From NCBI GenBank assembly GCA_022827185.1, contig JAJDTM010000046.1, forward strand, positions 68,644-132,643: DNA of 64,000 nt, given 5' to 3'. The notes beneath the pieces are model-generated. The model was not told where the DNA came from and ran no database searches. It saw only the letters and a list, made by a program, of their open reading frames with translations. The stretch is from Candidatus Poribacteria bacterium. Its GTDB lineage: Bacteria; Poribacteria; WGA-4E; WGA-3G. The stretch's first letter is position 1. Each line of letters starts with the position of its first letter. Both the position numbers and the translations under genes were made by a program. Of this stretch, positions 5,944 through 53,015 are shown piece by piece.

Positions 5944-6031
5944 AACCGAAAAAGTATTAATTAAGCCTTTCGTACCATATCACAAATTTTTCTTTTTTGT
6001 CAAGTTTTTATACGGAGGCTGTCTACTACTT

Positions 6032-7156: not shown

Positions 7157-7157
7157 A

Positions 7158-9134: not shown

Positions 9135-9220
9135 GATATATTATAACCAAATGGATATAATTTTTTCAAGGATAATGATCTCCATGAAGCCCAATGATTG
9201 TATATTTACGTATAGGCTTC

Positions 9221-10926: not shown

Positions 10927-10934
10927 CTTTTAAA

Positions 10935-11130
10935 CTTTCCTTACGGTTCGGTGAAGTGGGTCTGTAATTTCGGAGTGCCTCTCCGTAGAGTCGCATGCGC
11001 CGTTGTTGCATGCTGCTTTTTCTGAATTGGAGCAAAAATCCATAACTTTCCTTACGGTTCGGTGAAGTGGGTCTGTAATTTCGGAGTGCCTCTGTTGCAT
11101 GCTGCTTTTTCTGAATTGGAGCAGAAACCC
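10935..11130. repeat. Tandem direct duplication (~111 bp + ~85 bp units) in the upstream region of the glycosidase gene
   Basis: Two copies of CTTTCCTTACGGTTCGGTGAAGTGGGTCTGTAATTTCGGAGTGCCTCT...GTTGCATGCTGCTTTTTCTGAATTGGAGCA(A/G)AAA. Copy 1 carries a 22-bp insertion (CCGTAGAGTCGCATGCGCCGTT). Confidence 0.75.
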
Positions 11131-11135
11131 AATAT

Positions 11136-37086: not shown

Positions 37087-37806
37087 CTATTTTTTTAGAT
37101 GTGAAACATGTGTGCCTTCGGCTGGCTCAAACTGTTGTGAATTTTCGCCTTTGTAATGGCATATAAAACTCCGCCGCCATCGGTCGTGCGTCTTGTTCAT
37201 ATAGGAGCCGTGGATAACCTTACCATCAAAGAAAAGCGCGTCCCCGGGCGACATGTCGATGCCCAATTCTTTAGCGTTCTTCGGTTTGACGGCTTGTACA
37301 TTTGTAAACGAAATAGCGGTATCCGCCGCTTCAACGGAGAACAGTCCATGTTGATGGGAACGTGGAATCAGCACCATACGTCCAACAGCGTCGTCGGATG
37401 TATCCAATGCGACCCAAACGCCGATGAGGGGGTCTATGGTGATGTACTGCTCATCTTGATGGAGTGCCTGACCGCGTGCACCGGGCGGTTTGAAGTAGAT
37501 CATTGTTTGTAACAGCACTGGCGTATCGTCAATGAGTTGTTCCGTAATGTTAAGCAGGTTGGTATCTGCTGCCCATTCTTGGGTGAGTTCGTCCCAGTTG
37601 TGCATATTAATCATGCGTGGGAATTGGTGATTTGGGTCATCGGCGTGGTCGGTTGTGCCGCCGGAGTCGCCGGGTTTCGGACCTTCTGCACGGCGTTTCA
37701 TGTAGTGCTCGCGCATTGACGTTACTGTGGCTGGGTCAAAAAGATTTGGAACGACCACGAAGCCTTGTTCTTTGTAGTGGTTTTGTTGTAGATGGGTTAG
37801 GTGCAT
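37087..37806 (-). CDS. PhyH-family 2OG/Fe(II) dioxygenase (ectoine-hydroxylase-like)
   Basis: HxD (ALHQDEQ) and a distal His (VIHGSY). Confidence 0.55.
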   Translation of the reverse strand: MHLTHLQQNHYKEQGFVVVPNLFDPATVTSMREHYMKRRAEGPKPGDSGGTTDHADDPNHQFPRMINMHNWDELTQEWAADTNLLNITEQLIDDTPVLLQTMIYFKPPGARGQALHQDEQYITIDPLIGVWVALDTSDDAVGRMVLIPRSHQHGLFSVEAADTAISFTNVQAVKPKNAKELGIDMSPGDALFFDGKVIHGSYMNKTHDRWRRSFICHYKGENSQQFEPAEGTHVSHLKK

Positions 37807-37990
37807 GGAAAGTGCTCCCGCAGATTGCCGATCCGTTTTGGATGCTGTTTTCGAGTCTATCTTTTAATTTTATGGTAATTTCGGATATTTGTCAAAGTTT
37901 TTTCTCTCTATGTGTGGAAGGTTTGGTTTCTTGTGATAGCACCCAAACCAATTAACGCTCACCACCCGTGAAATCAACAAACTCTATGCC

Positions 37991-40900: not shown

Positions 40901-41275
40901 CGTCTCTACTATGCGAATCTTTCTAATCACGTCCTTTTGTTCTTAAATTCTGTCATTGGCGCAATGTTCTTTGAGCTATACAGCCGTTCAGGACTTGGCA
41001 AAGGTGCAAGAAGTATGATGGTTTCGGATTATGAGGATGTTCCAACTTTAGAGAATATAAATGTAGATAAGAAAGCGACTGAGTTGGTTTTAAGGCAAAT
41101 TTGCCCTTTGTCTCCCCGAAAATTTGCTAATTCTGAATCTGAGTGGTCTACCCTTGACGCAATCATCTTTGATGCCCTTGATCTCACACAAGGTGAACGG
41201 GATGGTGTGTATGAAGCGGTTGTTAATCTGGTGGAATCTCGGTTGCGGAAGGCGCGGAGTTTGAAGGGGAAATAG
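37991..41275 (+). CDS. Eco57I/MmeI/PglX-like gamma-class N6-adenine DNA methyltransferase with its own C-terminal TaqI_C-type target-recognition region; no recognisable nuclease domain
   Basis: 1094 aa. The N-terminal helical region carries PFLNGGLFE. Motif X is GSFYTPREIV, motif I is LDPACGSGAFPMG, and motif IV is VIGNPPYV. The C-terminal TRD-type region reads VRLGDVAEVRRGFTTGANEFFYL ... RWWDLGEE ... LLFLNSVIGAMFFEL. Confidence 0.75.
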   Translation: MPALLIFQHGQSLTFAIINRRPSQRDGARYVLEKMVLIKDIDVATPHRAHLDILADLSLDALYHRHEFTNFLELHQAWQRTLDTSELNRRFFKEIADWYFWAVDKVTFPSDAGDDKTVRNATCIIRLITRLIFVWFLKEKNLVPDALFNEEAIAELLTSLDAQESTYYKAVLQNLFFATLNQEMNTPEKPNTRKFRGEGRQHYNITSLYRYKRYFKDPDAALRLFETVPFLNGGLFECLDKSAPDDAKTILRIDGFSDRDDNPLYVPNELFFSEPQAVNLNAVYGTKNSRYTVRGLIHILNRYKFTIAENTPIEEEVALDPELLGQVFENLLAAFNPETGTTARKQTGSFYTPREIVNYMVDESLIAYLKNTVRSRAIHCPSETKLRHLLSYNDEPHQFTDTEVEHLINAIDTLKILDPACGSGAFPMGILHKLVFLLGKLDPRNAQWRQRQIDRVQAAIATSEKIDDSTFRESAIAELEREIESINDAFERNALDYGRKLYLIENCIYGVDIQPIATQIAKLRFFISLIVEQKIDDTRENRGVRPLPNLETKFVAANTLLGVEKPEQMMLRNPGIDSKEKALAEVRRRHFTARTPRTKDRYRQRDAELRAEISGLLKRDGFPSETTEKIAHWDPYNQNASADFFDPEWMFGITEGFDVVIGNPPYVRQEKIKHLKPTLKKHYTCYTGAADLYVYFYERGLQLLSPSGIHTFICSNSWLDVNYGAPLQKYLLDNTAGAVICHSEAEREFESADINTIVSLLQNGTPDADSHFRFLTFKTFIGDPDIENRRERTRTYTELGQAGTRDNRYTGDKWGGKYLRAPDIYWTILEKGKDKLVRLGDVAEVRRGFTTGANEFFYLDADRVQEWGIESEYLRHVIKSPRECKSIRVDPSQLQFKLFMCHADKAALTGTAALEYIKWGESQGYHQRPSCKGRVRWWDLGEESGNSIFVKEADETSAVFYNPDNYLVDCRLYYANLSNHVLLFLNSVIGAMFFELYSRSGLGKGARSMMVSDYEDVPTLENINVDKKATELVLRQICPLSPRKFANSESEWSTLDAIIFDALDLTQGERDGVYEAVVNLVESRLRKARSLKGK

Positions 41276-41340
41276 ATTAAATTCAGTTGATATTTGTTCA
41301 CCAGATGTGGTATTATTAACCCAAAAGAGAGGATTAGGTA

Positions 41341-43398
41341 ATGGCGAAAAAAATATCAAAGCGTGTTAAAACACTAAGTGGGTTTATGAAATGGGTGGAA
41401 CAATTCAACGATGGGCAATATCTGTTTCGAGGTGTTTCAAAACACACTCACAAATTGGAAGCATCTGCTTATCGTCGTCTGCCAGAAGCGGAAAGAAATA
41501 ATCAAAATAAACTCCTCAAAATCAATCAGGAGTTGATAGATAAAGCACGTCTTCTGGGGCACGATCAGAAAGATGGACATTACCTTTCTGATTTAGAACT
41601 GTTGGCAGAACTTCAGCACTTTGGTGCTGCTACCTGCTTGATAGATTTCACACGTAGCGCGCAGATCGCACTATGGTTTGCTTGCCAACAGAGTTCGACT
41701 GGAGAAGCAAATGGAAAAGTCTTCGCTGTGCGTTCTGACGATCCCGTACTCTTTAGAACCATTACCCCTAAATTGGTAGTCGAAAAAGACATTGGTTACT
41801 TTTTTGAAGAGGATGAGAGCGGGATATCTCCGCTATATCAATGGCAACCCAAGCAACAGAATAATCGTGTTATCGGCCAGCAATCCATTTTTATATTCGG
41901 TGGATCTCAAATTGAGGTGGCAGCAGAATGTGTAATTCTAAAAAGTAGTAAATCAGAAATTCTGGATTCTTTGGACAACTCTGCAGGTATCACTGAAGCG
42001 AGTATATATCCTGATTTTGACGGTTTCGCGCGTCTACATGCCCAAAATAAGCCATACATTGAACCGAATGTTCAAAGTTATCTGCAACGCGGGACCGAAG
42101 CACACTTAGAAGGCAAGCTTGATGATGCAATTGCCTACTACAGTGAAGTTATATCACTACAGCCAAACACTTCTACGCTAACTATAGCTTACCAAGGTCG
42201 TGGTTTTGCGTACTTTTTCAAACGTGAGTTTGACCCCGCTATTAAAGACTTTACCAAGGCAATAAATTCTAATTCCAAAGATGCCGTAACTTATTACAGT
42301 CGTGGGACAGTCTATAGTCTTACACGCGAATTTGATCTCGCTATCGCTGACTATACTAAAGCTATAGAACTTAATCCTGAGTTTGCTGAAGTCTACGTTC
42401 ATCGTGGTGCTGCTTACATTGACAATAACAAAGTTGATTTGGCCCTCAAGGACTATAACAAAGCGATGGAGCTTAAACCCGATGACCCTGTTACTTATGT
42501 CAGGCAAGGTATTGCTTACGGCAAAAAGGGGGAAATTGACACAGCTATTAAAAATCTTGGTAAGGCAATAGAACTCAATCCAAAATTTGCAGAAGCCTAC
42601 GCTACTCGTGGTGCTGCTTACATTGACAAAAAGGAACTTGATTTGGCTATTAGCGACTGTACGAAGGCGATAGAATTAGACCCAACTGATGCTACAGTAT
42701 ATTGCTACCGCGGTCGTGCTTACAACGAAAAAGGCATTTTTAACGAGGCGATTGATGACTTGACTCAAGCGATAGAACTGGATCCACATCTTGCCGAAGC
42801 TTACCTGAACCGTGGTAATGCCTACGATCATAAGAAAGATTTCAACAAGGCGATTGGTGATTATACTAAAGCGATAGAACTGGATCCAGATGACACTGAC
42901 TTCTACTGCTATCGCGGTTTTGCTTACCAACGCAAAGGTGATCTCAATTTGGCAATTGATGACTTTACCGAAGCGATAAAGAGAAATCCGAACTTTGCTG
43001 AAGCTTATCTGGATCGTGGATGTATTTATGGAGAAATAAGAGATTTTGACAAGGCGATTAATGATTTCACCAAATTGGTACAACTCAGACCTGATGATAG
43101 CAGAGCATACACTGCTCGCGGTGTTACTTACCGCAGGAAAGGTAATTTTAACTTAGCGATTAATGACTTTAGTAGAGGAATAAAAGTAGATCCAGATGAT
43201 GCTAAAGCTTATTACCACCGGGCCGATCTACGATTACACTTAAGGGAATTCAAAAAAGCCAAATCAGACCTAACAACTGCCAGAGACATGGGGGTAAATA
43301 TTATCGCTGCATTCCATAATAGCTACGAAAGCATTGAAGATTTTGAGCAGAAAACCGATATTCAGTTACCAGAAGACATCGCCGCGCTCTTGACCTAG
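41341..43398 (+). CDS. FRG-domain protein fused to ~13 TPR repeats and a conserved C-terminal module
   Basis: An N-terminal FRG motif (QYLFRGVSKHTHKLEASAYRR) and 34-aa TPR units (..A..Y..A..LDP..A.AY..RG.AY...). The C-terminal ARDMGVNIIAAFHNSYESIEDFEQKTDIQLPEDIAALL is shared with three neighbouring TPR proteins. Confidence 0.65.
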   Translation: MAKKISKRVKTLSGFMKWVEQFNDGQYLFRGVSKHTHKLEASAYRRLPEAERNNQNKLLKINQELIDKARLLGHDQKDGHYLSDLELLAELQHFGAATCLIDFTRSAQIALWFACQQSSTGEANGKVFAVRSDDPVLFRTITPKLVVEKDIGYFFEEDESGISPLYQWQPKQQNNRVIGQQSIFIFGGSQIEVAAECVILKSSKSEILDSLDNSAGITEASIYPDFDGFARLHAQNKPYIEPNVQSYLQRGTEAHLEGKLDDAIAYYSEVISLQPNTSTLTIAYQGRGFAYFFKREFDPAIKDFTKAINSNSKDAVTYYSRGTVYSLTREFDLAIADYTKAIELNPEFAEVYVHRGAAYIDNNKVDLALKDYNKAMELKPDDPVTYVRQGIAYGKKGEIDTAIKNLGKAIELNPKFAEAYATRGAAYIDKKELDLAISDCTKAIELDPTDATVYCYRGRAYNEKGIFNEAIDDLTQAIELDPHLAEAYLNRGNAYDHKKDFNKAIGDYTKAIELDPDDTDFYCYRGFAYQRKGDLNLAIDDFTEAIKRNPNFAEAYLDRGCIYGEIRDFDKAINDFTKLVQLRPDDSRAYTARGVTYRRKGNFNLAINDFSRGIKVDPDDAKAYYHRADLRLHLREFKKAKSDLTTARDMGVNIIAAFHNSYESIEDFEQKTDIQLPEDIAALLT

Positions 43399-43416
43399 CC
43401 AACGGACGAAAAAGAT

Positions 43417-43697
43417 CAACAAACCAAGAGTTTTCGCAGACTTCCACAACGCAGATGCAAAAGGCAGGGGTCCGATTGAACTGTGCCGGACAGCGGCGGA
43501 CCTTGAACGTCAGAAAATTATGCTGCGAAATGGATAGGCTCTTATTATCTATAGTGAAGAGTTGGAGGTTGAACGCATTGTTTGCTACTCCGAAAAAGAA
43601 AAGTTGTGGACAGGGGTGATTGATTGGGATGCCATTCAAGAGATAAAACCTGTCCCCTCTCAAATAACTCCGCAAATCCGTGACATAGCGCGGTAAT
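43417..43697 (+). pseudogene. Degenerate copy of the small protein gene found intact at 50794..51078 (no start codon, in-frame TAG)
   Basis: Nucleotide homology to 50806-51078 is ~90%, but ...CTGCGAAATGGATAGGCT has a TAG where the intact copy has CAG (Q), and there is no in-frame ATG. Confidence 0.45.
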
Positions 43698-43926
43698 GTG
43701 ATATACGCCTACACCTGATGAGATGGCTTCTTTTCAACTAATGCCTTAAGCATAGCATCGGGACGCGGTATTGTCTCATCGCGGATTGCACAGATTTCGC
43801 AGATTTTTTGAATCTGTATCATCTAGCATTATAGGTGACCGGTATGAAATCCGCGTCATCCGTACTATCTGTGCAAATCCGAGATTCAGACGATTGCGAG
43901 ATTTCATCCTCAAAGAAATTGGGATT

Positions 43927-46581
43927 ATGGAGAAAAAGCCGGTGAGTAAACCGTTAAAAGTGTTTATTACCTATTCACATAAAAATACAGCAGAAAAGGA
44001 CGAATTGATAACACGTCTTGCCCTTCTCAAACGTGAAGGCATAATAAGCATTTGGCATGACAACGAAATTCTGCCAGGTGACAAGTGGCGTGATGCTATC
44101 TTCAGCAATCTTGCGGATTCCGACCTTCTGCTCTATCTTACCTCTGCTGATAGCCTTGAATCTGAAAACTGTAATAAAGAATTAGCAGCGGCGTTAAACA
44201 CAGAGATAAGGGTGATTCCAATTATCCTTGAGCATTGTGATTGGCAAAACTATCAACTTAGTGACTTCCAAGCTCTTCCTGACAGAGGTAATCCTATTGA
44301 CGAATGGCAACCTGAGAGTAAAGGGTGGCAAAATGTAGTGGATGGTGTCCGAAAAGTTGTTGAAAGGCAGTCTGAGAATTGGTTTTCTGAAACCTTTGAG
44401 AAAGAACTTCGTGCTGAATCAGAGTTCCACCGTGGGAATGTTCAACAGCTGCTTGGGCAGCTAGAAATGGCAATAGAAGCCTATTCACAGTCCATTGACC
44501 TTAAACCTCGTGTTGCTAGTTCTTATAACAATCGCGGTGCTGCTTACCAGAAAAAAGGAAATTTTGATCGCGCCATTGAAGATTTTAACATGGCAATTGA
44601 ACTGAAAAACAACTATAGCCAAGCTTATTACAATCGTGGGCTCACTTACGACGAAAACGGTGAAATTGAAAAAGCCCTTGAAAACTATAATAAAGCGATA
44701 AAACTCAAACCTGATTATGCTGAAGCATATAGCAATCGAGGCAATATTTATAAGAAAGAAAGCAAGTTTGATAGAGCTGTCGCAGACTATAACATAGCGA
44801 TAAAACTCAGACCAGACCTTGCCGAGGTTCATTACAATCGCAGTGTAATTTACGAAAATGAAGGCGATTATGATAGGGCCATCCAAGATTGTAACACAGC
44901 GATAAAACTCAAACCCGATTTTCCCGAAGCGTATAACAATCGCGGTAACGCTTACATAGGAAAAGGTGAATTTGGCAATGCTATCGTGGATTATAATACG
45001 GCGATAAAACTCAAACCCGATTTTCCCGAAGCGTATTACAGCCGTGGTACTACTTATGGTATAACTGGCGATTCTAATAGCGCAATTAAAGACTTTGACA
45101 AAGCGATAAAACTCAAACCTGATTTTCCCGAGGCATACAGTAATCGCGGTAACGCTTACGTCTTTGAAGGCAAGTTGGAAAACGCTCTCAAAGACTACAC
45201 TGAAGCAATACAACTTAAACACGACTATGTTGATGCTTACTGTAATCGCGGAGCAGTTTATGGCATAACAGGCAATTATGACAGGGCAATCAAAGATTAT
45301 ACCGAAGCGATAAAACTCAATCCACACCATGCCAACGCCTATAATAATCGTGGAATGGCTTGGTTACACCTGCAAGAGTGGGATAGAGCCAAAACCGACT
45401 TCACAACTGCTAAACAGTTAGGCGTTGACATCATTGCAATGTTCCATAATTCCTACAAGGATGTTGAGACGTATCAAAAGAATCGGCTCGTCAAATTGCC
45501 GGAGGACCTTGCACTGCTGCTGACGCAACGCAGGCGGGATCGCTATCCGAAGCTGCAGAAAGTGTTGGATGCTGACGGCAATCCGCTGGAATTGCCGGAC
45601 GTGGTGAATTTACGCGAGCAGCTACGCAATGCTGGTCCCCAGCTAAGCGAGTACATCAATGCGAAGTCTGCCTTCGGTATTAATACGACCCCAACCGAGG
45701 TATTTGTGGTAGACAAAACGACACGGGATGAACTCATTGGGGCACATCCCGCATCTGCTGATATTTTGAAGCCGTTTTTGCACGGACAGGATATCAGACG
45801 TTGGTACGTTGATACACCGCAGCACTGGTTAATTTTTACCCACCGCGGTATAGCAATAGACGACTACCCGGCAATTTTGAAGTATTTGGAGAGTCATAAG
45901 GAGAGCCTACAGAAAAGAAAGGGTAAACAAGCATGGTACGAGTTACCGGCGTCTCTTGACCATGCGGAACGTTTTGCACAACCGAAACTGGTTTGTCCAA
46001 ACACCTATAACCATCACACTTTTGCGGTTGATACAGAGAGTTTTTATTACGGGAATACGTCTTACCTTATCCCAACCGAGGAAAAATGGCTTTGTGGGCT
46101 TCTCAATTCCCGGACTGTAGAGTGGTTCTATTCACAGGTGTCGAACCAATTGACGATTGATCCGCTTCGGGCGCGCAGCGGGTATATCCAACAGATTCCG
46201 ATTCCCGACATCACGCCAGTTCACAAAGCACTCATTGCTAAAATCGTTGACTACCTGATCTCTCTGCAGCAGCAACCGGAGATAAACAGCAAAGATTTGA
46301 AGTACGCCCGCGACCATGTGATGCTTGGATACTTTGAGCGCGTTATTGATGGATTGATTTATGAGGCTTACCTACCTGCGGAACTTCATAAGAGCGATAA
46401 AGTCTTCTTGCAACCGTTATTGGACGAAGGGTTGCCACTCATTGAAGAGATTCAGGGCAATAAAATGACTGCTTTCCGGGACATCTTTGAGCGGCTATAT
46501 GACAGGATGCATCTTGTCCGACGCCACCTTTATTATCTGGATGTTATAAAACCTATCCGCATTATTCAGGGGAAACTGTGA
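43927..46581 (+). CDS. TIR-domain protein fused to TPR array, the shared post-TPR module, and a C-terminal TaqI_C/Eco57I-C-like DNA target-recognition domain
   Basis: The TIR reads KVFITYSHKNTAEKDELITRL...ISIWHDNEILPGDKW...SENCNKEL. About nine TPR units follow. The shared module is AKQLGVDIIAMFHNSYKDVETYQKNRLVKLPEDLALLL. The C-terminus has GINTTPTEVFVV...GQDIRRWYV...HWLIFTHRG..YPAILKYLESHKESLQKRK..QAWYELP...KLVCPNTYNHHTFAVD..YY.NTSYLIP...LCGLLNSRTVEWFY...IQQIPIPD. I trimmed the start to ATG at 43927 (MEKKPVSKPLKVFITYSHKN). Confidence 0.65.
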   Translation: MEKKPVSKPLKVFITYSHKNTAEKDELITRLALLKREGIISIWHDNEILPGDKWRDAIFSNLADSDLLLYLTSADSLESENCNKELAAALNTEIRVIPIILEHCDWQNYQLSDFQALPDRGNPIDEWQPESKGWQNVVDGVRKVVERQSENWFSETFEKELRAESEFHRGNVQQLLGQLEMAIEAYSQSIDLKPRVASSYNNRGAAYQKKGNFDRAIEDFNMAIELKNNYSQAYYNRGLTYDENGEIEKALENYNKAIKLKPDYAEAYSNRGNIYKKESKFDRAVADYNIAIKLRPDLAEVHYNRSVIYENEGDYDRAIQDCNTAIKLKPDFPEAYNNRGNAYIGKGEFGNAIVDYNTAIKLKPDFPEAYYSRGTTYGITGDSNSAIKDFDKAIKLKPDFPEAYSNRGNAYVFEGKLENALKDYTEAIQLKHDYVDAYCNRGAVYGITGNYDRAIKDYTEAIKLNPHHANAYNNRGMAWLHLQEWDRAKTDFTTAKQLGVDIIAMFHNSYKDVETYQKNRLVKLPEDLALLLTQRRRDRYPKLQKVLDADGNPLELPDVVNLREQLRNAGPQLSEYINAKSAFGINTTPTEVFVVDKTTRDELIGAHPASADILKPFLHGQDIRRWYVDTPQHWLIFTHRGIAIDDYPAILKYLESHKESLQKRKGKQAWYELPASLDHAERFAQPKLVCPNTYNHHTFAVDTESFYYGNTSYLIPTEEKWLCGLLNSRTVEWFYSQVSNQLTIDPLRARSGYIQQIPIPDITPVHKALIAKIVDYLISLQQQPEINSKDLKYARDHVMLGYFERVIDGLIYEAYLPAELHKSDKVFLQPLLDEGLPLIEEIQGNKMTAFRDIFERLYDRMHLVRRHLYYLDVIKPIRIIQGKL

Positions 46582-48017
46582 AAATAACCAATATTAAGAT
46601 TAAAAATTTCAGAGCTTTTCCGCAAATCTATCACATCAATCTTCATAATGCGGGGAAGAACTTACTTGTTTATGGAGAAAATGGGAGCGGAAAATCGTCA
46701 CTGTATCTCGCCCTAAAGTATTTTCTTGAATCCGGTGTGCCCGAAAATAGCGAGGATGACAGGAACCGGGCGTTTGAAACCCATCAAAATATCTTTACCG
46801 AGGATCTTGGTCATATCAAACTTCATTTCCGTTCAGAGCCTCAACGAGAGAAAGATACCTATGAGTGGTCAAGAGATGTTAAACAGACAACTGACGAGCT
46901 GATTATTGAAACGTCAAAGGCGAAAGGCTTTCTGGACTACAAGGTGCTATTGGAAACACACTATCTTCATCGTGAAAACGATATTGTGAATTTGTTCGAT
47001 CTGTTGGTTGAAGTGCTGCTGGCAAACACTATCAACCCCAGGACAGATAGACCTCTCACAGCGGACTGGAACGCCATTCAGCCTCCGTTTCCTCGCAGAG
47101 GTGCAAAACACCAAATTGCGGACCTGGAAAGACAGATAGTCAACTTCAACAGGGAGTTAGCAAACAGGTTAGCAGAATTAAGTCCGAAGGTGTCCGAAAT
47201 TCTCAACAAGTTTGGATACAAAGTCGCGCTTGACTTTGATTTTCAAGGCGTTACGTACAACCAGGGTGAGAAAACGCTTGATAACCGAGAGATTCTCTTA
47301 AAAGTTGAATTTTTTGATACAGATATACCTTCACATCACCGATTCCTGAACGAGGCAAAGCTGTCAGCAATTGCGATTGCTATCTATCTTTCGTCAATCT
47401 TGTGCTTGCCAGAACCAAAAGAAGGCATGAAAATTCTTGCGCTTGACGATGTGCTGATAGGTTTGGATATGTCAAACCGTCTGCCGGTTCTTGACATTCT
47501 GAACGAGTACTTCTCAGATTACCAAATCTTCTTGACGACTTACGATAAGGCGTGGTATGAGATTGCTAAACAACGGACAGACCAAAAAGACTGGAAATAT
47601 GCTGAATTCTATTTCTCCCAAACCGATGAGTATGAAATTCCGGTCTATGCAGAAGATAAGGCATACCTTGAAAAGGCGCGGGAATATCTTGATTTGAATG
47701 ACTACAAAGCCTGTGCAATTTACGTCCGAACCGCTTTTGAAGCGGTAATCAAACGATACTGTGAGAAAAGGAATCTTGCCATTAAGTATCGTGAAAATCC
47801 GAAAGACTTGAGAAGTGAAGATTTTTGGGTACCGATAAAAATGGAAATGGACGAAGCGGGCGACCTCCTTTTAGATCTAAGAGTTGTTGACAAAATTGAA
47901 TTGGCACGAAAATTTATCCTAAATGAACTCAGTCATGATACCTTCGTGAATATCTACAGAAAGGAACTTGAGGATGCAATTGACGCGGTTGCGGAACTTG
48001 AAGCTGCTTTAGCATAG
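46578..48017 (+). CDS. SMC/RecF-like ABC ATPase (AAA_15/AAA_21-type), translationally coupled to the TIR gene
   Basis: A GTG start overlaps the TIR-gene TGA (GTGA). The N-terminus reads IKIKNFRAF..., Walker A is GENGSGKSS, the D-loop/Walker B is ILALDDVLIGLD, and the signature/His region reads QIFLTTYD. Confidence 0.7.
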   Translation: MKITNIKIKNFRAFPQIYHINLHNAGKNLLVYGENGSGKSSLYLALKYFLESGVPENSEDDRNRAFETHQNIFTEDLGHIKLHFRSEPQREKDTYEWSRDVKQTTDELIIETSKAKGFLDYKVLLETHYLHRENDIVNLFDLLVEVLLANTINPRTDRPLTADWNAIQPPFPRRGAKHQIADLERQIVNFNRELANRLAELSPKVSEILNKFGYKVALDFDFQGVTYNQGEKTLDNREILLKVEFFDTDIPSHHRFLNEAKLSAIAIAIYLSSILCLPEPKEGMKILALDDVLIGLDMSNRLPVLDILNEYFSDYQIFLTTYDKAWYEIAKQRTDQKDWKYAEFYFSQTDEYEIPVYAEDKAYLEKAREYLDLNDYKACAIYVRTAFEAVIKRYCEKRNLAIKYRENPKDLRSEDFWVPIKMEMDEAGDLLLDLRVVDKIELARKFILNELSHDTFVNIYRKELEDAIDAVAELEAALA

Positions 48018-48044
48018 AGCTAAGCCGCGCTAAGATAATTCATA

Positions 48045-48266
48045 ATGATTCAGAATAATCAAGAACTTGAAACAACGTTGGAACGCATTGAACGCTTTCA
48101 AAAGATAGTTGAGAAACTCAAAGCGTCTGAAACAAATCCACGGAATTATGAGTTATCCACGGGCGGTTTCCTTGCGGAAATCGACCGGATGAAACTGGAA
48201 GTGAGAAAGTATCTATCCATTCATTCGAGCGAATTGATAGAACAAATTGCTGAAGGCAGTACCTAA
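48045..48266 (+). CDS. Small coiled-coil protein of unknown function
   Basis: A 73-aa ORF between the ATPase and the next TPR gene with no clear SD. It may be a real small adaptor or may be spurious. Confidence 0.3.
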   Translation: MIQNNQELETTLERIERFQKIVEKLKASETNPRNYELSTGGFLAEIDRMKLEVRKYLSIHSSELIEQIAEGST

Positions 48267-48337
48267 AAATAAGCAAAATCAATCCGCGTCATCCGTGAAA
48301 TCCGCGAAAATTCGCGATTTGCGGCGTACTCGCCCAA

Positions 48338-49663
48338 ATGCGACCTGCATTCAGACAAGCAAAAAGTCAAATTCCTCAAGTCACTTGCATCTTGGAGAAA
48401 AACATGGGAAAAAAACACAGTCAAAAACGCGCCGAGATGTATTACAAGCACGGGTTCGCTCAAAGGAAAAAAGCGGATTATGAGCGTGCTATTGTAGACT
48501 TTACCAAAGCGATAGAACACAATCCAGAAGATGTCTTTGCCTATACGAATCGGGGTGTAGTTTATTACAACAAGGGTAAGTTTTACCGTGCAGTCGATGA
48601 CTTTAGCAAAGTCATAAGCCTCACACCTGATGATGCATTTGCCTACTATGGCCGCGGGATGGCTTACCGCAATCTGCTGATTTTTGAGAAAGCCATCCAA
48701 GACTTTAGCACGGCGATACGTCTTAAACCCGATACGGCTGCTGATGCCTATACCGAGCGCGGTGTAACTTATCACACCAAAGGTGATGTAGACCATGAAG
48801 GTGATGTAGACCATGCTATTGAAGACTATAATGCTGCGATAGCACTGGATCCAGCGTTTGCACAGGCTTGGACGGCGCGCGGTAAAGCTTATCGTGATAA
48901 AGGCGAGATTGACAAGGCAATTGAAAATTACAACAAGGCGATTGAACTCAACCCAGAACTCGCTGAGCCTTATACCTACCGCGGTCTTATCTACACCGAA
49001 CAAGGCGCGGTAGACAAAGCGATTGAAGATCATAGCAAAGCGATCACGTGCAACCCAGAGTTTGCCGAAGCGTACGTTAATCGAGGGCAGGCTTACTACG
49101 CCAAAAACGAATTGGACCAGGCGATAGCAGATTATGACAAAGCCATAGAGATCGATTCAGAACTTGTGGAGGCATACACGTATCGGGGCAACGCGTATCG
49201 CGCTAAAGTCGAGTTAGACAGCGCAATTGCGGATTATACCGAGGCACTAAAACTCAGACCAAAGATTGCTGAATTCTATTACACACGGGGTGAGGCTTGG
49301 TTGCTTGCGAAAGGTTGGGAAGAGGCGAAGACCGACTTGACAGCTGCGCTCCTACAAGACATGGATGTCGCCGCTGCGTTTCACAATATCCACGGGAGCA
49401 TTGCTGCCTTTGAGGAGAAGATAGGGAGTCGTTTGCCGAGAGAGATTGTAGTATTATTGACACCGCGGAGCGAACCGTTTGAAATTGATAAAGATGCGCG
49501 GATCGCGTTGGGAATGAAGTATTATGGAAACGACGAACTCAGCAGTGGACTCGCAGCGCGCCTTGCAGGTGTCCCACGCGAAGATTTCTGGTACCTAATG
49601 GGGGATTACGGTCTCTCTCTCCTTACCCTTGATGAAGAAGAGCACGCCAAGAGCGGATTTTAA
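48338..49663 (+). CDS. TPR-repeat protein with shared post-TPR module and C-terminal UPF0175-type antitoxin domain
   Basis: TPR units are followed by AAFHNIHGSIAAFEEKIGSRLPREIVVLL. The C-terminal ALGMKYYGNDELSSGLAARLAGVPREDFWYLMGDYGLSL matches the UPF0175 antitoxin fold pattern. An alternative start is ATG at 48404. Confidence 0.6.
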   Translation: MRPAFRQAKSQIPQVTCILEKNMGKKHSQKRAEMYYKHGFAQRKKADYERAIVDFTKAIEHNPEDVFAYTNRGVVYYNKGKFYRAVDDFSKVISLTPDDAFAYYGRGMAYRNLLIFEKAIQDFSTAIRLKPDTAADAYTERGVTYHTKGDVDHEGDVDHAIEDYNAAIALDPAFAQAWTARGKAYRDKGEIDKAIENYNKAIELNPELAEPYTYRGLIYTEQGAVDKAIEDHSKAITCNPEFAEAYVNRGQAYYAKNELDQAIADYDKAIEIDSELVEAYTYRGNAYRAKVELDSAIADYTEALKLRPKIAEFYYTRGEAWLLAKGWEEAKTDLTAALLQDMDVAAAFHNIHGSIAAFEEKIGSRLPREIVVLLTPRSEPFEIDKDARIALGMKYYGNDELSSGLAARLAGVPREDFWYLMGDYGLSLLTLDEEEHAKSGF

Positions 49664-49666
49664 AGA

Positions 49667-50158
49667 ATGCCGATACAACCAGTTGTTAGCAATAACAGTC
49701 CGCTTGTGGGACTTTTGGGGATCAATCTGCTTTCTCTGTTGCGAGATCTTTATACAGAGGTATGGATTCCACGAAAAGTTGAAAAGGAGTTTCTCAGAAA
49801 GGATCCGATAGTCCGCCGGGAGGCACTCGAAAATGCTCCCTGGATTAAAACTGTTGATTTAACGGATCCGCGAACCGCTGCGGTTCATGCGGAACTTGAT
49901 GAGGGTGAAGCCGAGGCATTGGCTCTTGCTAATGAACATGACGCTCGTCTCGTTCTTCTTGATGAAAAGAAAGGAAGACAGAAAGCCAAGCAAATTGGAT
50001 TAACGGCTATGGGGATAGTAGGCGTTTTGCAAGAGGCGAAGGAAGAAGGCTTGATTGATGCCATCAAGCCGCTTTTAATTCGGTTGCAGGATAACGGAAT
50101 CCACCTGAGCGAATCGCTCATCAATAACGCCCTACAAGACGCAGGTGAGGCAGATTAG
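49667..50158 (+). CDS. DUF3368-type PIN-domain protein (toxin partner of UPF0175)
   Basis: The conserved acidic residues of the DUF3368/PIN fold are present (VVSNNSPLVGLLGI..., ...DEGEAEALALA..., LVLLDEKKGRQKA). It starts 3 nt after the TPR-UPF0175 stop. Confidence 0.65.
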   Translation: MPIQPVVSNNSPLVGLLGINLLSLLRDLYTEVWIPRKVEKEFLRKDPIVRREALENAPWIKTVDLTDPRTAAVHAELDEGEAEALALANEHDARLVLLDEKKGRQKAKQIGLTAMGIVGVLQEAKEEGLIDAIKPLLIRLQDNGIHLSESLINNALQDAGEAD

Positions 50159-50397
50159 CAGGCGGGTTTACAACGCACACTCACGTTGTATGGAAGTGAC
50201 AGAATAAATTAATTGCTACCAGATATTGCCGAAATGTTGACGTAGTAGTAGGAGCAAAGCCTAATCCACCGCTTCAAAACCGCTGCCAGTTTCAAGTAGG
50301 AGAGCATTCTGTCTGCACGATTTATCCCAGCAATCCTTTAATCCTGATTCAGACAATATTATACATACCGCTCTGCTGGAGGAGAAGGAAAAACGAC

Positions 50398-50790
50398 CAT
50401 AGTTGTCAATTTAGGGATCCGCCAGGTCCGGTAGGTTCGGTTTCCCAACCGAACCGGACTGCCCCAAGACCGGCGGATGCTTTCTCTCAAGGGATGTGTC
50501 GGTTGAGTTTGTGTGTATAACCCGGGGCAGTTAGGAAACTACACCATAGGTGTCAATTTAGGGTTTTTTCACGGCATTTGGGAATGGTTAATAAACATGC
50601 CGCCCTTACAGGGCTTGGTTTTTGCTTGAACATGCTGCTATAAACATATCGTCCCTCCGGGACTAAAGAGGGTTATGAAGTCTTCAAGGTTTTCGCGTCG
50701 TATCCGGTTCGGTTAGTAAACCGAACCTACCGGGTCCGGGGCTGAGGTGGTTATTTTTTTAAAATTGACACTTATGGGTCAGAAGAAAAA
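50398..50790. repeat. Repeat-rich intergenic block: family-C palindromes (50423-50465 and 50704-50741, mutually inverted), 21-bp direct repeats ACCATAG(T/G)TGTCAATTTAGGG (50398-50418, 50543-50563) and an inverted partial copy (50765-50780)
   Basis: Read directly from the sequence. It separates the two TPR-UPF0175/PIN modules. Confidence 0.6.
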
Positions 50791-50793
50791 ACG

Positions 50794-51078
50794 ATGATGA
50801 ATAAACCAAGAGTTTTCACAGACTTCCACAACGCGGATGCAAAAGGTAGGGTCCGATTGAATTGTGCTGAAACTGCGGCGGACCTTGAACGTCAGAAAAT
50901 TATGCTGCGAAATGGACAGGTTCTTATTATCTATAGCGAAGAGTTAGAGGTTGAAGGCATTGTTTGCTACTCCGAAGAGGAAAAGTTGTGGACAGCGGTA
51001 ATTGATTGGAATGCTATTCAAGAGATAGAACCTGTCGCCTCCCAAATAACTCCGCAAATCCGTGACATAGCGGGGTAA
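50794..51078 (+). CDS. Small conserved hypothetical protein (94 aa); intact copy of the pseudogene at 43417..43697
   Basis: The ORF is MMNKPRVFTDFHNADAKGRVRLNCAETAADLERQKIMLRNGQVLIIYSEELEVEGIVCYSEEEKLWTAVIDW... Both copies immediately precede a TPR-module gene. Confidence 0.4.
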   Translation: MMNKPRVFTDFHNADAKGRVRLNCAETAADLERQKIMLRNGQVLIIYSEELEVEGIVCYSEEEKLWTAVIDWNAIQEIEPVASQITPQIRDIAG

Positions 51079-51133
51079 TGTGATATACTTCTACACTACC
51101 TTTGAGAAACCTGCCTTGTGAAGGAGAGAACTG

Positions 51134-52543
51134 ATGCAAGAACTGATCCAGGGTTCTGTGGATACTTATTACAACAGCGATTTTGCCGAGGTGAAAAGAG
51201 AAGACGACGCAGCAAGACATAACACCCAAGGCATCGCTTATAGTAAAAACGGTGAGCACGCACGCGCAATCGCAGCCTTCAACAAGGCGGTAAAACTGGA
51301 TCTACATTTTGCCGAGGCTTATTACAATCGCGGATGCGCTTATGACGGCAAAGGCGATTATGAAAAAGCAATTGAAGACTATTGCGCAGCGATCAAGCAC
51401 AATCCCAATTTTGCTGAGGCATACAACAACCGCCGTAACACATATAAGAAAAAAGGCACCGCATATAAAACCTACGGAGATTATAGTATAGCGATAAAGT
51501 TGGCTCCACAACTGACTGAGGCATATTACAATCGAGGGACCGACTCTCTCAAAGAAGGTTCCTATAACGATGCGATTAGAGATTATGACACGGCAATAGA
51601 ACGCCAGCCAAAGTTTCCGCAATTTTATAATGCTCGCGGTGTCGCTTACGAAAATGACAGCGAGATTTTGGCTGTGCTTTCACGCTATAAGGTAGCAGTA
51701 GGGCTGGAGGCGAGAGTCCCTAAAGTCCGTATATCTTACGGAGAGGAATACTACAGTGAAGCGGAACTCCGTGCTGCTATTGAAGACTATAGCACAGCGA
51801 TCGATTTGAAACCGAATTATGCCGAGGCGTATTTCAATCGTGGGAGAGCACACTTCAAAAAAGGTGAGAGTGATGCCGCTATCAAAGACTATAGTACAGC
51901 AATCGCTTTGAAATCAGATTACGCCGAGGCGTATCTCAACCTTGGTGTGGCTTATGACAGCAGAGATGAGTTTGACGCTGCACTCGAAAACTATAATATA
52001 TCCGTATCCCTCGCCTCTGATCTCCCGATTGCTTACAGTCATCGAGGTGCTGCTTCCCTCCGTAAAGGTAAAGTAAAATCAGCGATTGAAGACTATAACA
52101 CAGTCCTATCTCTCAATCCCGATTACACAGCGGTGTATTACAAGCGCGGGATAGCATGGTTATATGTGAGAGAGTGGGAGAAAGCGAAAACCGACCTGAT
52201 TGCCGCCAAAGATAGAGGTATGGCTATCATGCAGACGTTCCATGACGATTACAGAAACGTGGTAACGTTTGAACAGAAAACGGGTGTTCATTTACCTGAA
52301 GACATAACGGGATTGCTAATTCCACAAAAAGGGCTTGCCGAACTGGAAAAGGAAACTCGGCTGGCGTTGGCATTGAAATATTATAAAAGCGGCGCGATCA
52401 GTACCGGACTCGCTGCGCAATTGGTAGGTATATCCCGCGAAGCGTTCTGGTATCTTATGGGGGATTACGGGCTCTCTCTGTTTGAGCTAACTGAAGATCT
52501 ACTTGCGGAGCTCGATAATGCCTCCAAGACCAATTATCAGTAA
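51134..52543 (+). CDS. TPR-repeat protein with shared post-TPR module and C-terminal UPF0175-type antitoxin domain (second copy)
   Basis: A good RBS (GAAGGAGAG) precedes the start. The module reads TFHDDYRNVVTFEQKTGVHLPEDITGLL and the C-terminus reads ALALKYYKSGAISTGLAAQLVGISREAFWYLMGDYGLSL. Confidence 0.6.
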   Translation: MQELIQGSVDTYYNSDFAEVKREDDAARHNTQGIAYSKNGEHARAIAAFNKAVKLDLHFAEAYYNRGCAYDGKGDYEKAIEDYCAAIKHNPNFAEAYNNRRNTYKKKGTAYKTYGDYSIAIKLAPQLTEAYYNRGTDSLKEGSYNDAIRDYDTAIERQPKFPQFYNARGVAYENDSEILAVLSRYKVAVGLEARVPKVRISYGEEYYSEAELRAAIEDYSTAIDLKPNYAEAYFNRGRAHFKKGESDAAIKDYSTAIALKSDYAEAYLNLGVAYDSRDEFDAALENYNISVSLASDLPIAYSHRGAASLRKGKVKSAIEDYNTVLSLNPDYTAVYYKRGIAWLYVREWEKAKTDLIAAKDRGMAIMQTFHDDYRNVVTFEQKTGVHLPEDITGLLIPQKGLAELEKETRLALALKYYKSGAISTGLAAQLVGISREAFWYLMGDYGLSLFELTEDLLAELDNASKTNYQ

Positions 52544-53015
52544 TAATAGTCCGCTCGTTGCACTTTTAGGACTTGACCTTCTTTCTTTATTACGCGAACT
52601 TTACACTGAGGTATGGATTCCTGAAGAGGTCAAAGCGGAGTTTCTTGGGGTAGAAAGAATGCACCGCCTGCAGGCACTTAACGATGCTCCATGGATTAAA
52701 ACCGTTCATTTGACAGATGTAACGGACGTATCAACTTATGTGAGAAGCGGACTTGATCTTGGTGAAGCCGCCGTATTCGCGCTTGCCAAAGAACACGATG
52801 CTCAATTTGTCATTATTGATGAACTCAAGGCGCGACAGCATGCTGCGAGAATCGGATTATCTTTTAAAGGCACGCTTGGCATTTTGCTTGAGGCGAAGGA
52901 AGAAGGCTTGATTGATGCCATCAAGCCGCTTTTAATTCGGTTGCAGGATAACGGAATCCACCTGAGCGAATCGCTCATCAATAATGCCCTACAGGACGCG
53001 GGTGAGGTGGATTAA
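52518..53015 (+). CDS. DUF3368-type PIN-domain protein (second copy)
   Basis: It is paralogous to 49667..50158; the C-terminal 60 aa are nearly identical. I trimmed the start to ATG at 52518 (MPPRPIISNNSPLVALLG), which overlaps the upstream TPR gene end. Confidence 0.65.
   Translation: MPPRPIISNNSPLVALLGLDLLSLLRELYTEVWIPEEVKAEFLGVERMHRLQALNDAPWIKTVHLTDVTDVSTYVRSGLDLGEAAVFALAKEHDAQFVIIDELKARQHAARIGLSFKGTLGILLEAKEEGLIDAIKPLLIRLQDNGIHLSESLINNALQDAGEVD

What the first reader, a model, noticed from the sequence alone, without database searches (positions are those of the whole stretch)
41341..52543. Four paralogous TPR proteins share a conserved post-TPR module but carry different N- and C-terminal functional domains (FRG / TIR / none; none / TRD / UPF0175 antitoxin)
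All four TPR genes (41341, 43927, 48338, 51134) end their TPR arrays with the same ~40-aa block (A(K/R)..G(V/M).II..FHN.Y......FE.K....LPEDI..LL). They then diverge: one stops, one continues into a DNA-recognition domain, and two continue into a UPF0175 antitoxin domain. The TPR units themselves are highly repetitive at the nucleotide level (for example GCGATAAAACTCAAACCCGATTTTCCCGAAGCGTAT at 44905, 45001 and 45101). This looks like a recombining, modular sensor family.
Basis: seen in the sequence. Interest (0 to 1): 0.65.

Follow-up and report, generated by a model that had tools for sequence, protein, structure and literature searches.

The report
Poribacterial defence-island TPR family end-cap
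Four neighbouring repeat proteins share a previously undescribed 35-residue end-cap that marks a large family, found almost only in sponge-symbiont Poribacteria, in which one repeat scaffold is combined with different toxic or DNA-binding domains inside an anti-virus gene island.

Summary
Genes at 41341, 43927, 48338 and 51134 each end their TPR array with the same ~67-aa block: a degenerate last TPR plus a 35-aa tail. The Pfam domain calls (FRG, TIR, TaqI_C, UPF0175) are confirmed.

The tail is not a generic TPR cap:
- No Pfam or NCBIfam model matches it.
- AlphaFold gives three short helices (pLDDT 97) with no PDB match.
- A tail-only HMM hits 59 of 150 TPR-rich representatives; 90 do not hit at all.

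The tail marks a family found in 47 Poribacteria assemblies, 3 Dehalococcoidia and 1 unclassified. In 69 loci there are 101 genes: FRG-TPR-tail 41, TIR-TPR-tail 19, TPR-tail only 36, +UPF0175 4, +TRD 4.

Each C-terminal add-on comes with a partner gene. UPF0175 is always followed by a DUF3368 PIN gene. The TRD is followed by an SMC-like ATPase with a 4-nt overlap in 7 of 7 cases where downstream DNA was available. In 19 of 68 loci an Eco57I-type RM gene lies directly upstream, as it does here.

The four window genes are old paralogs (36-43% identity), not recent recombinants. TPR arrays diverge faster than the flanking domains.

Best reading: a modular effector-sensor family of a defence island. 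Function is inferred, not shown. Verdict: a new variant of a known kind, of moderate interest.

The parts
37991..41275 (+). Eco57I/PglX-like type IIG RM-methyltransferase gene (1094 aa), 5'-truncated. It is the first gene of the + strand island.
   Evidence: Pfam Eco57I 1.4e-37 and N6_Mtase. PADLOC REase_MTase_IIG 7e-78. Homologs carry about 165 more N-terminal residues. A remnant 'TTREINKLYA' lies upstream of the ATG and is then broken by stop codons. The same kind of gene lies directly upstream of a family gene in 19 of 68 loci.
41341..43398 (+). Gene A: FRG domain (about 1-245), 11 TPR units, end module. Stops right after the tail.
   Evidence: (PDC-S15 1.3e-30). A keeps all 29 columns that are at least 90% conserved in 22 family FRG domains.
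43195..43395 (+). End module of A (residues 619-685): degenerate last TPR plus a 35-aa three-helix tail (651-685).
   Evidence: AlphaFold pLDDT 97.
43414..43714 (+). Pseudogene copy of the 94-aa small gene at 50794-51078: 92% identical, with a frameshift and an in-frame TAG.
   Evidence: (D5, D8).
43927..46581 (+). Gene B (884 aa): TIR, 10 TPR units, end module, TaqI/BseCI-type target-recognition domain with no methyltransferase domain.
   Evidence: ThsB-like TIR 1.1e-29; type IIG C-terminal matches 1.6e-21; M.BseCI TRD, 7qw5, 6.6e-11.
45325..45525 (+). End module of B. The tail is internal here and is followed by the TRD region (45526-46578).
46578..48017 (+). SMC/RecF-like ABC ATPase (479 aa). 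Its start overlaps B's stop by 4 nt. It is the conserved partner of TRD-bearing family members.
   Evidence: Pfam AAA_23, SMC_N, AAA_15. PADLOC LmuB, mad3 and AriA-like matches, mostly to the N-terminal ATPase part. More than 120 clusters at 70-94% identity; the named ones are Poribacteria. The pair is seen in L026, L030, L038, L074, L075 and L076.
48045..48266 (+). 73-aa ORF of unknown function. It recurs in related loci.
   Evidence: No family hit. Homologs in L025, L044 and L049.
48338..49663 (+). Gene C: 8 TPR units, end module, UPF0175 antitoxin domain. The true start may be the ATG at 48404, which follows GGAG.
   Evidence: 86% identical ortholog in L016, also followed by a PIN gene.
49262..49462 (+). 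End module of C.
49667..50158 (+). DUF3368 PIN-like toxin gene, partner of C.
   Evidence: Pfam DUF3368 1.1e-13. PADLOC PDC-S70 1.2e-44.
50794..51078 (+). 94-aa ORF of unknown function. It recurs in family loci.
   Evidence: Homologs in 9 loci. No family hit.
51134..52543 (+). Gene D: 9 TPR units, end module, UPF0175 antitoxin domain.
52121..52321 (+). End module of D.
52503..53015 (+). DUF3368 PIN-like toxin gene, partner of D. It overlaps D's 3' end.
   Evidence: 67% identical to the other PIN protein, with the last ~45 aa nearly identical. A ~90-nt tract near the 3' end is 97-100% identical at DNA level.

Best explanation
The four genes are old paralogs of one multigene family that is almost confined to Candidatus Poribacteria. 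All are built on a common chassis with four parts:
1. An optional N-terminal effector: FRG, TIR, or rarely a trypsin-like protease.
2. A fast-evolving TPR array of variable length.
3. A conserved end module: a degenerate last TPR plus a 35-aa three-helix cap.
4. An optional C-terminal domain that plugs the chassis into a two-gene module. This is either a UPF0175 antitoxin with a downstream DUF3368 PIN toxin, or an MTase-less TaqI/BseCI-type DNA-recognition domain with a downstream SMC-like ATPase.

The shared block is the family-specific C-terminal cap of this TPR solenoid. It is inherited by descent and reused as the junction for add-on domains.

The genes lie in a defence island that starts with an Eco57I-type RM gene.

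Inferred mechanism: the TPR array binds a trigger, probably a phage protein or peptide, and thereby controls the attached output.
- In A and B the output is NAD+-directed activity of FRG or TIR.
- In C and D the output is release of the PIN toxin from the fused antitoxin.
- In B the TRD and ATPase add DNA sensing.

Shown here: the architecture, the family, its distribution, the partner genes, and the predicted fold. Inferred: the defence role, the sensing role of the TPR array, and any enzyme activity.
For: **The tail is real and specific**
- The leave-out HMM hits only the four window ORFs.
- It hits 59 of 150 TPR-rich representatives, while 90 give no hit even at E 10.
- No Pfam or NCBIfam model covers it.
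- AlphaFold pLDDT is 97, with three short helices after the last TPR.
- PDB Foldseek aligns only the TPR part. For the 67-aa module alone there is no hit at E <= 0.001.

**Family and modularity**
- 69 loci from 51 species-representative assemblies: 47 Poribacteria, 3 Dehalococcoidia, 1 unclassified.
- These hold 101 tail ORFs, often 2-4 per 8 kb.
- In 88 of 101 the tail ends within 9 aa of the stop codon.
- FRG and TPR-tail also occur as separate adjacent genes (L003, L011).

**Partner genes**
- UPF0175 forms are followed by a PIN gene in 4 of 4 loci, in L072, and twice in the window.
- TRD forms are followed by the ATPase with a 4-nt overlap in 7 of 7 cases where downstream DNA was available.

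**Link to RM genes**
- 19 of 68 loci, the window, L072 and L076 have an Eco57I-type gene directly upstream.
- These RM proteins are only 26-63% identical to the window's.

**Defence context**
- PADLOC gives PDC-S15, ThsB-like TIR, PDC-S70 and type IIG RM.
- Neighbouring genes in the loci include TIR, DUF262-like, PIN and OLD-like ATPase genes, judged from the sequences by eye.

**Sensor-like evolution**
- TPR arrays are 45-60% identical between orthologs, against 68-88% for the flanking domains.

**Effectors look intact**
- Conserved residues are kept in both the FRG of A and the TIR of B.
- FRG is assigned to the ADP-ribosyltransferase (ART) superfamily and proposed as an NADase in PMC9503650.
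Against: - No experiment and no expression data exist. The defence role rests on domain content and gene neighbourhood.
- The RM gene in this window is 5'-truncated, so any RM-coupled function may be lost here.
- The 19 RM-linked loci are not phylogenetically independent.
- The genome scan used two consensus peptide patterns. The apparent restriction to Poribacteria may therefore be overstated, and copies per genome are lower bounds.
- The library-wide size of the family is unknown, because generic TPR matches swamped the only full search.
- Nothing shows what the tail itself does beyond capping. Its conservation (52% mean pairwise identity, against 32% for TPR units) suggests an extra role that this account does not explain.
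Confidence: 0.6

Rival explanations
1. The tail is more than a cap. It is a dedicated docking or oligomerisation element, shared by all family members. It binds a common partner, binds other family members, or folds back on the TPR groove to keep the protein off. Candidate partners are the upstream RM enzyme or a host hub protein. This would make the island a hub-and-spoke network.
For: - The tail is the best conserved part of the chassis: 52% mean pairwise identity, against 32-33% for TPR units and 40% for the last TPR.
- It keeps conserved acidic residues (FE.K, LPEDI).
- It is retained in every architecture, including when it is internal.
- Family genes cluster 2-4 per locus and follow RM genes.
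Against: - No interaction data exist, and multimer modelling could not be run.
- Most conserved positions are hydrophobic (L, W, I, F), as expected for a packed cap.
- RM partners are divergent and are absent from most loci.
Confidence: 0.25
2. These are 'eukaryote-like' TPR/TIR proteins used by sponge symbionts to manipulate the host, for example by interfering with host TIR signalling or phagocytosis. They are not antiviral genes.
For: - The family is almost confined to sponge-associated lineages: Poribacteria and a few Dehalococcoidia MAGs.
- The literature treats poribacterial TPR proteins as host-interaction candidates (PMC3909097).
Against: - The N-termini are FRG or TIR domains that begin within about the first 25 residues, leaving no room for a signal sequence.
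- The genes are fused to antitoxins and to RM-type TRDs, and are paired with PIN toxins and ATPases.
- They follow RM genes.
- The TIR is ThsB-like.
Confidence: 0.1
3. The block is just the ordinary C-terminal capping helix found on unrelated TPR proteins.
For: The first tail helix packs after the last TPR, where a solvating helix would sit. The first 32 aa of the block are a TPR.
Against: - 90 of 150 strongly TPR-rich representatives have no tail match at all. Scores are bimodal: at least 29 bits or nothing.
- There is no Pfam or NCBIfam match. NF047558 TPR_END_plus matches only internal TPR units, at profile positions 1-35.
- The 67-aa module has no PDB fold match.
- The tail co-occurs with a narrow set of domains and lineages.
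Confidence: 0.04
4. The locus is an actively recombining cassette system. The conserved block and the repetitive TPR DNA serve as present-day recombination substrates that shuffle N- and C-terminal domains or change TPR copy number.
For: - A perfect 36-nt repeat occurs twice in gene B.
- A 92% identical ~300-nt duplicate of the small gene lies upstream of B and D.
- A 97-100% identical tract lies in the PIN 3' ends.
- A 16-mer is shared upstream of B and C.
- TPR number varies from 2 to 31 across the family.
Against: - The four blocks have a mean column identity of only 57% at DNA level, and the proteins are 36-43% identical.
- Each architecture has conserved relatives in other genomes, so the shuffling is ancient.
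- TPR units are only 60-77% identical at DNA level.
Confidence: 0.08

Closest known systems
PADLOC candidate system PDC-S15 (single-gene FRG-domain proteins; Pfam PF08867)
   Same: A's N-terminal ~230 aa match PDC-S15 models (1.3e-30) and Pfam FRG.
   Different: The models cover only the FRG part. Here FRG is fused to a long TPR array and the family tail, usually follows an RM gene, and can be split off as a separate gene.
Bacterial TIR defence proteins (Thoeris ThsB-type TIR; Pfam TIR_2)
   Same: B's TIR matches ThsB1 (1.1e-29) and TIR_2, and keeps the conserved Glu of the NCNKEL motif.
   Different: There is no ThsA partner. The TIR is fused to TPR, tail and a DNA-recognition domain, and is coupled to an SMC-like ATPase.
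UPF0175 / DUF3368-PIN toxin-antitoxin pairs (PADLOC PDC-S70)
   Same: C and D end in UPF0175, and each is followed by a DUF3368 gene with strong PDC-S70 matches.
   Different: Judged from the lengths of the UPF0175 and PDC-S70 profiles (75-94 positions), the antitoxin is normally a short stand-alone protein. Here it carries 300-400 aa of TPR plus tail, and in other genomes also a TIR.
Type IIG RM enzymes and gamma-class N6-adenine methyltransferases (Eco57I, TaqI, BseCI; BREX PglX)
   Same: The upstream gene has Eco57I and N6_Mtase domains. B's C-terminus is homologous to the TRD of M.BseCI and to the TRDs of poribacterial RM enzymes (25-36% identity).
   Different: B has the TRD only, with no catalytic domain. 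Its TRD is not detectably similar to that of the neighbouring RM gene. No other BREX or DISARM genes are present.
Effector-plus-TPR conflict proteins (Pfam PF20308 TPR-S, 'Tetratricopeptide Repeats-Sensor')
   Same: The general logic is the same: effector domain plus TPR array. A passes the TPR-S cut-off (33.2 vs 27.6 bits).
   Different: There is no NTPase or ternary-system partner here. The conserved tail and the poribacterial expansion are not matched by any model in the Pfam-A or NCBIfam copies searched here.
Generic TPR C-terminal caps (solvating helix of consensus TPR proteins such as 1na0; NCBIfam NF047558 TPR_END_plus)
   Same: Same position at the end of the array. The first tail helix follows the last TPR.
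   Different: The tail has three short helices with a distinct conserved sequence. NF047558 does not match it, and structural alignments stop at the TPR part.

Membership tests
TPR repeat proteins (Pfam TPR_1/TPR_2/TPR_11) | Tandem 34-aa helix-turn-helix repeats that match the TPR profiles | tested here: met
   TPR_1 E 1.6e-98, 1.6e-92, 1.1e-68 and 9.6e-50. 102-nt DNA period. AlphaFold helix pairs.
FRG domain / PDC-S15 | Match to PF08867 above its cut-off, and to PDC-S15 models | tested here: met
   A: 57.4 bits against a cut-off of 25. PDC-S15 1.3e-30.
FRG domain / PDC-S15 | NADase or ART-like activity, and anti-phage effect | not testable with these tools
   Only a literature proposal exists (PMC9503650). 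Conserved residues are retained.
Thoeris (ThsA + ThsB) | TIR protein ThsB | tested here: met
   B's N-terminus matches ThsB1 at 1.1e-29.
Thoeris (ThsA + ThsB) | Adjacent ThsA (SIR2/SLOG or Macro) effector gene | tested here: not met
   No such domain is present in any island gene. The locus is therefore not filed as Thoeris.
UPF0175-DUF3368 toxin-antitoxin pair (PDC-S70) | UPF0175 protein immediately upstream of a DUF3368/PIN gene | tested here: met
   C+49667-50158 and D+52503-53015. The same pairing occurs in L016, L050, L054, L071 and L072.
UPF0175-DUF3368 toxin-antitoxin pair (PDC-S70) | Toxicity of the PIN protein and its neutralisation by the antitoxin | not testable with these tools
   Needs expression experiments.
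Gamma-class N6-adenine DNA methyltransferase / type IIG RM (for gene B) | TaqI_C-type target-recognition domain | tested here: met
   TaqI_C 57.4 bits. M.BseCI TRD 6.6e-11.
Gamma-class N6-adenine DNA methyltransferase / type IIG RM (for gene B) | Catalytic methyltransferase domain (N6_Mtase/Eco57I, NPPY motif) | tested here: not met
   B has no MTase family hit. PADLOC matches cover only the C-terminal parts of the RM models.
Type IIG RM (for gene 37991-41275) | Eco57I/N6_Mtase domain plus TRD in one polypeptide | tested here: met
   (M_Eco57I_C).
Type IIG RM (for gene 37991-41275) | Intact N-terminal (nuclease) region | tested here: not met
   About 165 N-terminal residues present in homologs are missing. 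Whether that region is a nuclease was not established.
NCBIfam NF047558 TPR_END_plus (TPR end-of-group domain) | Match across the whole 56-position profile, including the post-TPR part | tested here: not met
   The best stretches are internal TPR units, at profile positions 1-35. The end modules scanned alone give no hit at E <= 10.
Lamassu / MADS / Gabija / PARIS (for the ATPase) | Full-length match to the ATPase model, plus the system's partner genes | tested here: inconclusive
   Weak matches (LmuB 1.3e-13, mad3 6.1e-13, AriA 2.5e-12), mostly to the first ~100 residues. No LmuA, GajB or AriB-type partner is present. The conserved partner is the TRD protein.

The most novel reading that the evidence does not exclude
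The TIR-TPR-tail-TRD protein and its overlapping SMC-like ATPase, often placed behind an Eco57I-type RM gene, form a new sequence-guided abortive-infection system. In it, an RM-derived DNA-recognition domain without a methyltransferase reads foreign DNA and switches on a TIR NADase. More broadly, the conserved tail would be the shared docking element of a poribacterial immune network. A sizeable part of the 'eukaryote-like' TPR repertoire of sponge symbionts would then be antiviral rather than host-directed.
Probability: 0.2. Interest if true: 0.7.

Novelty: new variant of a known kind. Interest (0 to 1): 0.5.

Why it matters
TPR proteins are among the most enriched 'eukaryote-like' genes of sponge symbionts, and they are usually read as host-interaction factors. 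This family shows that many poribacterial TPR genes carry NAD+-directed effectors or antitoxins and sit in RM/toxin-antitoxin islands. That points to virus defence instead.

The analysis also defines three things that can be tested directly:
- A conserved 35-aa cap that could become a new profile for annotation.
- TPR-extended UPF0175 antitoxins, which are candidate trigger-sensing toxin-antitoxin pairs.
- A conserved TIR-TPR-TRD + ATPase gene pair that would link DNA sequence recognition to a TIR effector.

Tried and rejected
**Searches that underperformed or failed**
- The word-indexed protein search with the 67-aa block returned only 42 short proteins (38-117 aa). This looks like a candidate-selection bias, so it was not used for architecture statistics.
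- The one exhaustive profile search was swamped by generic TPR proteins (58,696 hits). I rescued it with a local tail-only HMM on the 150 returned sequences. The total family size remains unknown.
- The first genome scan failed because the alignment had no conserved 7-10-column stretch. It was repeated with closer sequences, which biases the result toward consensus-like tails.

**Ideas tested and rejected**
- B's TRD as a recent copy of the neighbouring RM gene's TRD: BLAST E 0.76. It is related to other poribacterial RM TRDs instead.
- The tail as NF047558 TPR_END_plus, or as any Pfam family.
- Recent duplication of the four genes.

**Checks that added nothing**
- The promoter and terminator scan found no more sites than shuffled sequence.
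- There are no Rfam families or tRNAs in the window, so there is no obvious integration site.
- The small ORFs of 94 and 73 aa got no family assignment.
- Literature searches found no description of this family.

Full report
**1. What is at the coordinates**

The window has a block of + strand genes from 37991 to 53015, flanked by - strand genes. In order, it holds:

| Coordinates | Gene |
|---|---|
| 37991-41275 | Eco57I-type RM-methyltransferase gene |
| 41341-43398 | Gene A |
| 43414-43714 | Degraded copy of a small gene |
| 43927-46581 | Gene B |
| 46578-48017 | ATPase gene; its start overlaps B's stop by 4 nt |
| 48045-48266 | 73-aa ORF |
| 48338-49663 | Gene C |
| 49667-50158 | DUF3368 PIN gene |
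| 50794-51078 | 94-aa ORF |
| 51134-52543 | Gene D |
| 52503-53015 | Second DUF3368 PIN gene |

- A has FRG.
- B has TIR_2 and TaqI_C.
- C and D have UPF0175.
- Each gene has 8-11 TPR units.

PADLOC adds defence-related labels:
- PDC-S15 for A's FRG part.
- ThsB-like for B's TIR.
- Type IIG C-terminal regions for B's C-terminus.
- PDC-S70 for both PIN genes.
- Type IIG RM for the first gene.

My translations from 43921 have two extra residues.

**2. The shared block**

All four proteins carry the block at the end of the TPR array. It has two parts. The first ~32 aa are a degenerate TPR (Y..RG.AWL....W..AK.DL..A). The last 35 aa are non-TPR (G.DII..FHNDY.S...FE.K.G..LPEDIAALLT).

A tail HMM built only from sequences outside the window finds exactly these four ORFs in the window, at 32-76 bits.

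At DNA level the blocks have a mean column identity of only 57%. The four proteins are 36-43% identical over TPR plus tail. Each has a closer relative elsewhere: A 70%, B 62%, C 86%, D 46%. They are therefore old paralogs.

The quoted 36-mer is exact at 44899 and 45001. A third copy at 45103 has four mismatches. Otherwise the TPR units are 60-77% identical at DNA level.

**3. Is it just a TPR cap?**

No, on four grounds.
- Neither Pfam nor NCBIfam has a model that covers the tail. NCBIfam TPR_END_plus matches only internal TPR units, over its first 35 positions.
- AlphaFold models of A residues 550-685, and of the 67-aa module alone, are very confident (pLDDT 97). They show three short helices after the last TPR.
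- PDB Foldseek aligns only the TPR part of the longer model. For the module alone there is no hit at E <= 0.001.
- Among the 150 best TPR-rich representatives from the exhaustive search, 59 contain the tail at 29 bits or more. One scores 13.5 bits, and 90 give nothing even at E 10.

**4. The family**

Tail-bearing representatives have these N-termini:
- FRG: 27
- TIR: about 17
- Trypsin-like: 2

Their C-termini are as follows:
- Nothing after the tail: about 43
- A 351-353-aa TRD region: 5, plus one partial
- UPF0175: 3
- Rarer additions, including a second TIR with pentapeptide repeats

All mixed combinations occur: FRG+TRD, TIR+TRD and TIR+UPF0175.

A scan of species-representative genomes gave 69 loci from 51 assemblies: 47 labelled Poribacteria, 3 Dehalococcoidia and 1 unclassified. 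These loci hold 101 tail ORFs, often 2-4 per 8 kb:

| Architecture | ORFs |
|---|---|
| FRG-TPR-tail (one also has a TRD) | 41 |
| TIR-TPR-tail (one also has a TRD) | 19 |
| TPR-tail only (several follow a separate FRG gene) | 36 |
| with UPF0175 | 4 |
| with TRD | 4 |

The TPR number ranges from 2 to 31. In 88 of 101 ORFs the tail ends within 9 aa of the stop. In L003 and L011 the FRG domain and the TPR-tail are separate adjacent genes (ATG TAA AAC ATG), so the modules can be split.

The window is most likely poribacterial. The closest relatives of its genes are in Poribacteria MAGs. The source contig is a 196-kb metagenome scaffold.

**5. Partner genes and context**

UPF0175-bearing members are always followed by a DUF3368 PIN gene (L016, L050, L054, L071, L072, and twice in the window).

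TRD-bearing members are followed by the SMC-like ATPase with a 4-nt overlap. This holds for L026, L030, L038 (ATPase fragmented there) and the window. It also holds for three ATPase homologs picked without regard to their neighbours (L074, L075, L076). A fifth TRD gene, in L050, runs into the end of its locus and could not be checked.

The ATPase is highly conserved. More than 120 clusters are 70-94% identical, and the named ones are Poribacteria.

B's C-terminal region matches the TRD of M.BseCI (7qw5, E 6.6e-11). It also matches the TRDs of poribacterial Eco57I-type enzymes at 25-36% identity, but not the TRD of the RM gene next door. It has no methyltransferase domain.

In 19 of 68 loci an Eco57I-type ORF lies directly upstream on the same strand: 10 before TIR forms and 8 before FRG forms. 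The same holds in the window, in L072 and in L076. These RM proteins are only 26-63% identical to the window's. The link therefore spans divergent enzymes, although the loci are not independent.

Outside Poribacteria, the one locus examined for this RM family (L073, Nitrospirae) has it after a PLD-SNF2 helicase gene.

Other neighbours in the loci include TIR, PIN, DUF262-like and OLD-like ATPase genes, judged from their sequences by eye.

**6. Evolutionary pattern**

Across 70 family members the tail is more conserved than the repeats:

| Region | Mean pairwise identity |
|---|---|
| Tail | 52% |
| Last TPR | 40% |
| Preceding TPR units | 32-33% |

Between orthologs the TPR arrays diverge fastest, at 45-60%. 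FRG is 87-88%, TRD 77% and TIR 68%. This is the pattern expected if the array is the recognition surface.

A keeps all 29 highly conserved FRG columns. B keeps the conserved TIR residues, including the Glu of NCNKEL. From general knowledge of TIR NADases, that Glu corresponds to the catalytic glutamate. FRG has been assigned to the ART superfamily and proposed as an NADase effector (PMC9503650).

**7. Most likely mechanism**

*Shown:* a common chassis (optional effector, TPR array, family-specific cap, optional partner-binding domain) that is reused across a defence island and across Poribacteria.

*Inferred:*
- The TPR array binds a trigger and controls the attached output.
- In A and B the output would be NAD+-directed activity.
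- In C and D the fused antitoxin would release the PIN toxin.
- In B the TRD and ATPase would add DNA recognition.

The tail most simply caps the solenoid and serves as the junction for add-ons. Its higher conservation leaves room for a docking or self-association role (rival 1).

The host-manipulation reading common in the sponge literature fits the lineage restriction. It does not fit the domain fusions or the partner genes.

**8. Novelty and verdict**

The individual domains and the toxin-antitoxin pair are known kinds. What appears undescribed in the libraries and papers I could search:
- The conserved tail.
- The poribacterial expansion built on it.
- The TPR-extended UPF0175 antitoxins.
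- The conserved TIR-TPR-TRD + ATPase pair.
- The recurrent placement behind Eco57I-type genes.

I rate it a new variant of a known kind, with interest 0.5.

**9. Limits**
- There is no functional or expression evidence.
- The genome scan was biased toward consensus-like tails.
- The total family size is unknown.
- The RM gene in this window is 5'-truncated.

Noticed in passing
window 37800-38040 (start of the gene at 37991-41275): The Eco57I-type RM gene is 5'-truncated. Homologs have about 165 more N-terminal residues, with DUF4391-like similarity. A remnant 'TTREINKLYA' is still readable upstream of the ATG, before stop codons and unrelated sequence. An 87% identical relative (P0195) also starts at this Met.
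   Followed up: partly
window 43414-43714 vs 50796-51096: The spacer between A and B holds a 92% identical but broken copy (frameshift plus TAG) of the 94-aa ORF that precedes D. This points to a recent segmental duplication inside the island. Homologs of this small ORF recur near family genes in 9 other loci. Its function is unknown.
   Followed up: partly
window 50040-50130 vs 52897-52987 (3' ends of the two PIN genes): The two DUF3368 genes are about 60-70% identical at DNA level over their 3' halves. They share a ~90-nt tract of 97-100% identity near the 3' end, which looks like gene conversion. The tract contains an 8-bp-stem inverted repeat, GGCTTGATTGATGCCATCAAGCC.
   Followed up: partly
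window 43848-43863 and 48281-48296: An exact 16-mer, AATCCGCGTCATCCGT, lies 60-80 nt upstream of both B and C. It is embedded in AATCCGCG/CGCGGATT-like repeats. A 2-mismatch copy is at 18181-18196 on the - strand. It could be a shared operator or a dispersed repeat.
   Followed up: no
L003 4873-6486 and L011 4347-5906: In two Poribacteria genomes the FRG domain and the TPR-tail part are separate, tightly coupled genes (…ATG TAA AAC ATG…). This is a natural split of the fusion seen in gene A.
   Followed up: partly
L076 423-8440; L074 and L075 3405-8443: The TIR-TPR-tail-TRD gene plus overlapping ATPase is a conserved pair across Poribacteria. In L076 it follows a full-length 1238-aa Eco57I-type gene. 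In L074 and L075 it sits at a different conserved chromosomal site and is followed by a ~100-aa TPR mini-protein, and in L075 also by a Fic gene.
   Followed up: partly
window 50158-50794: A 636-nt stretch between the first PIN gene and the 94-aa ORF has no ORF of 60 aa or more. It carries a 31-nt direct repeat (50386-50416 and 50533-50563, 84% identical). There is no Rfam match.
   Followed up: no
L073 (Nitrospirae MAG) 5645-11201: In this Nitrospirae locus, the only non-poribacterial one examined, a homolog of this RM family follows a PLD-SNF2 helicase gene and is split into fragments. That context differs from the poribacterial RM-TPR arrangement.
   Followed up: no
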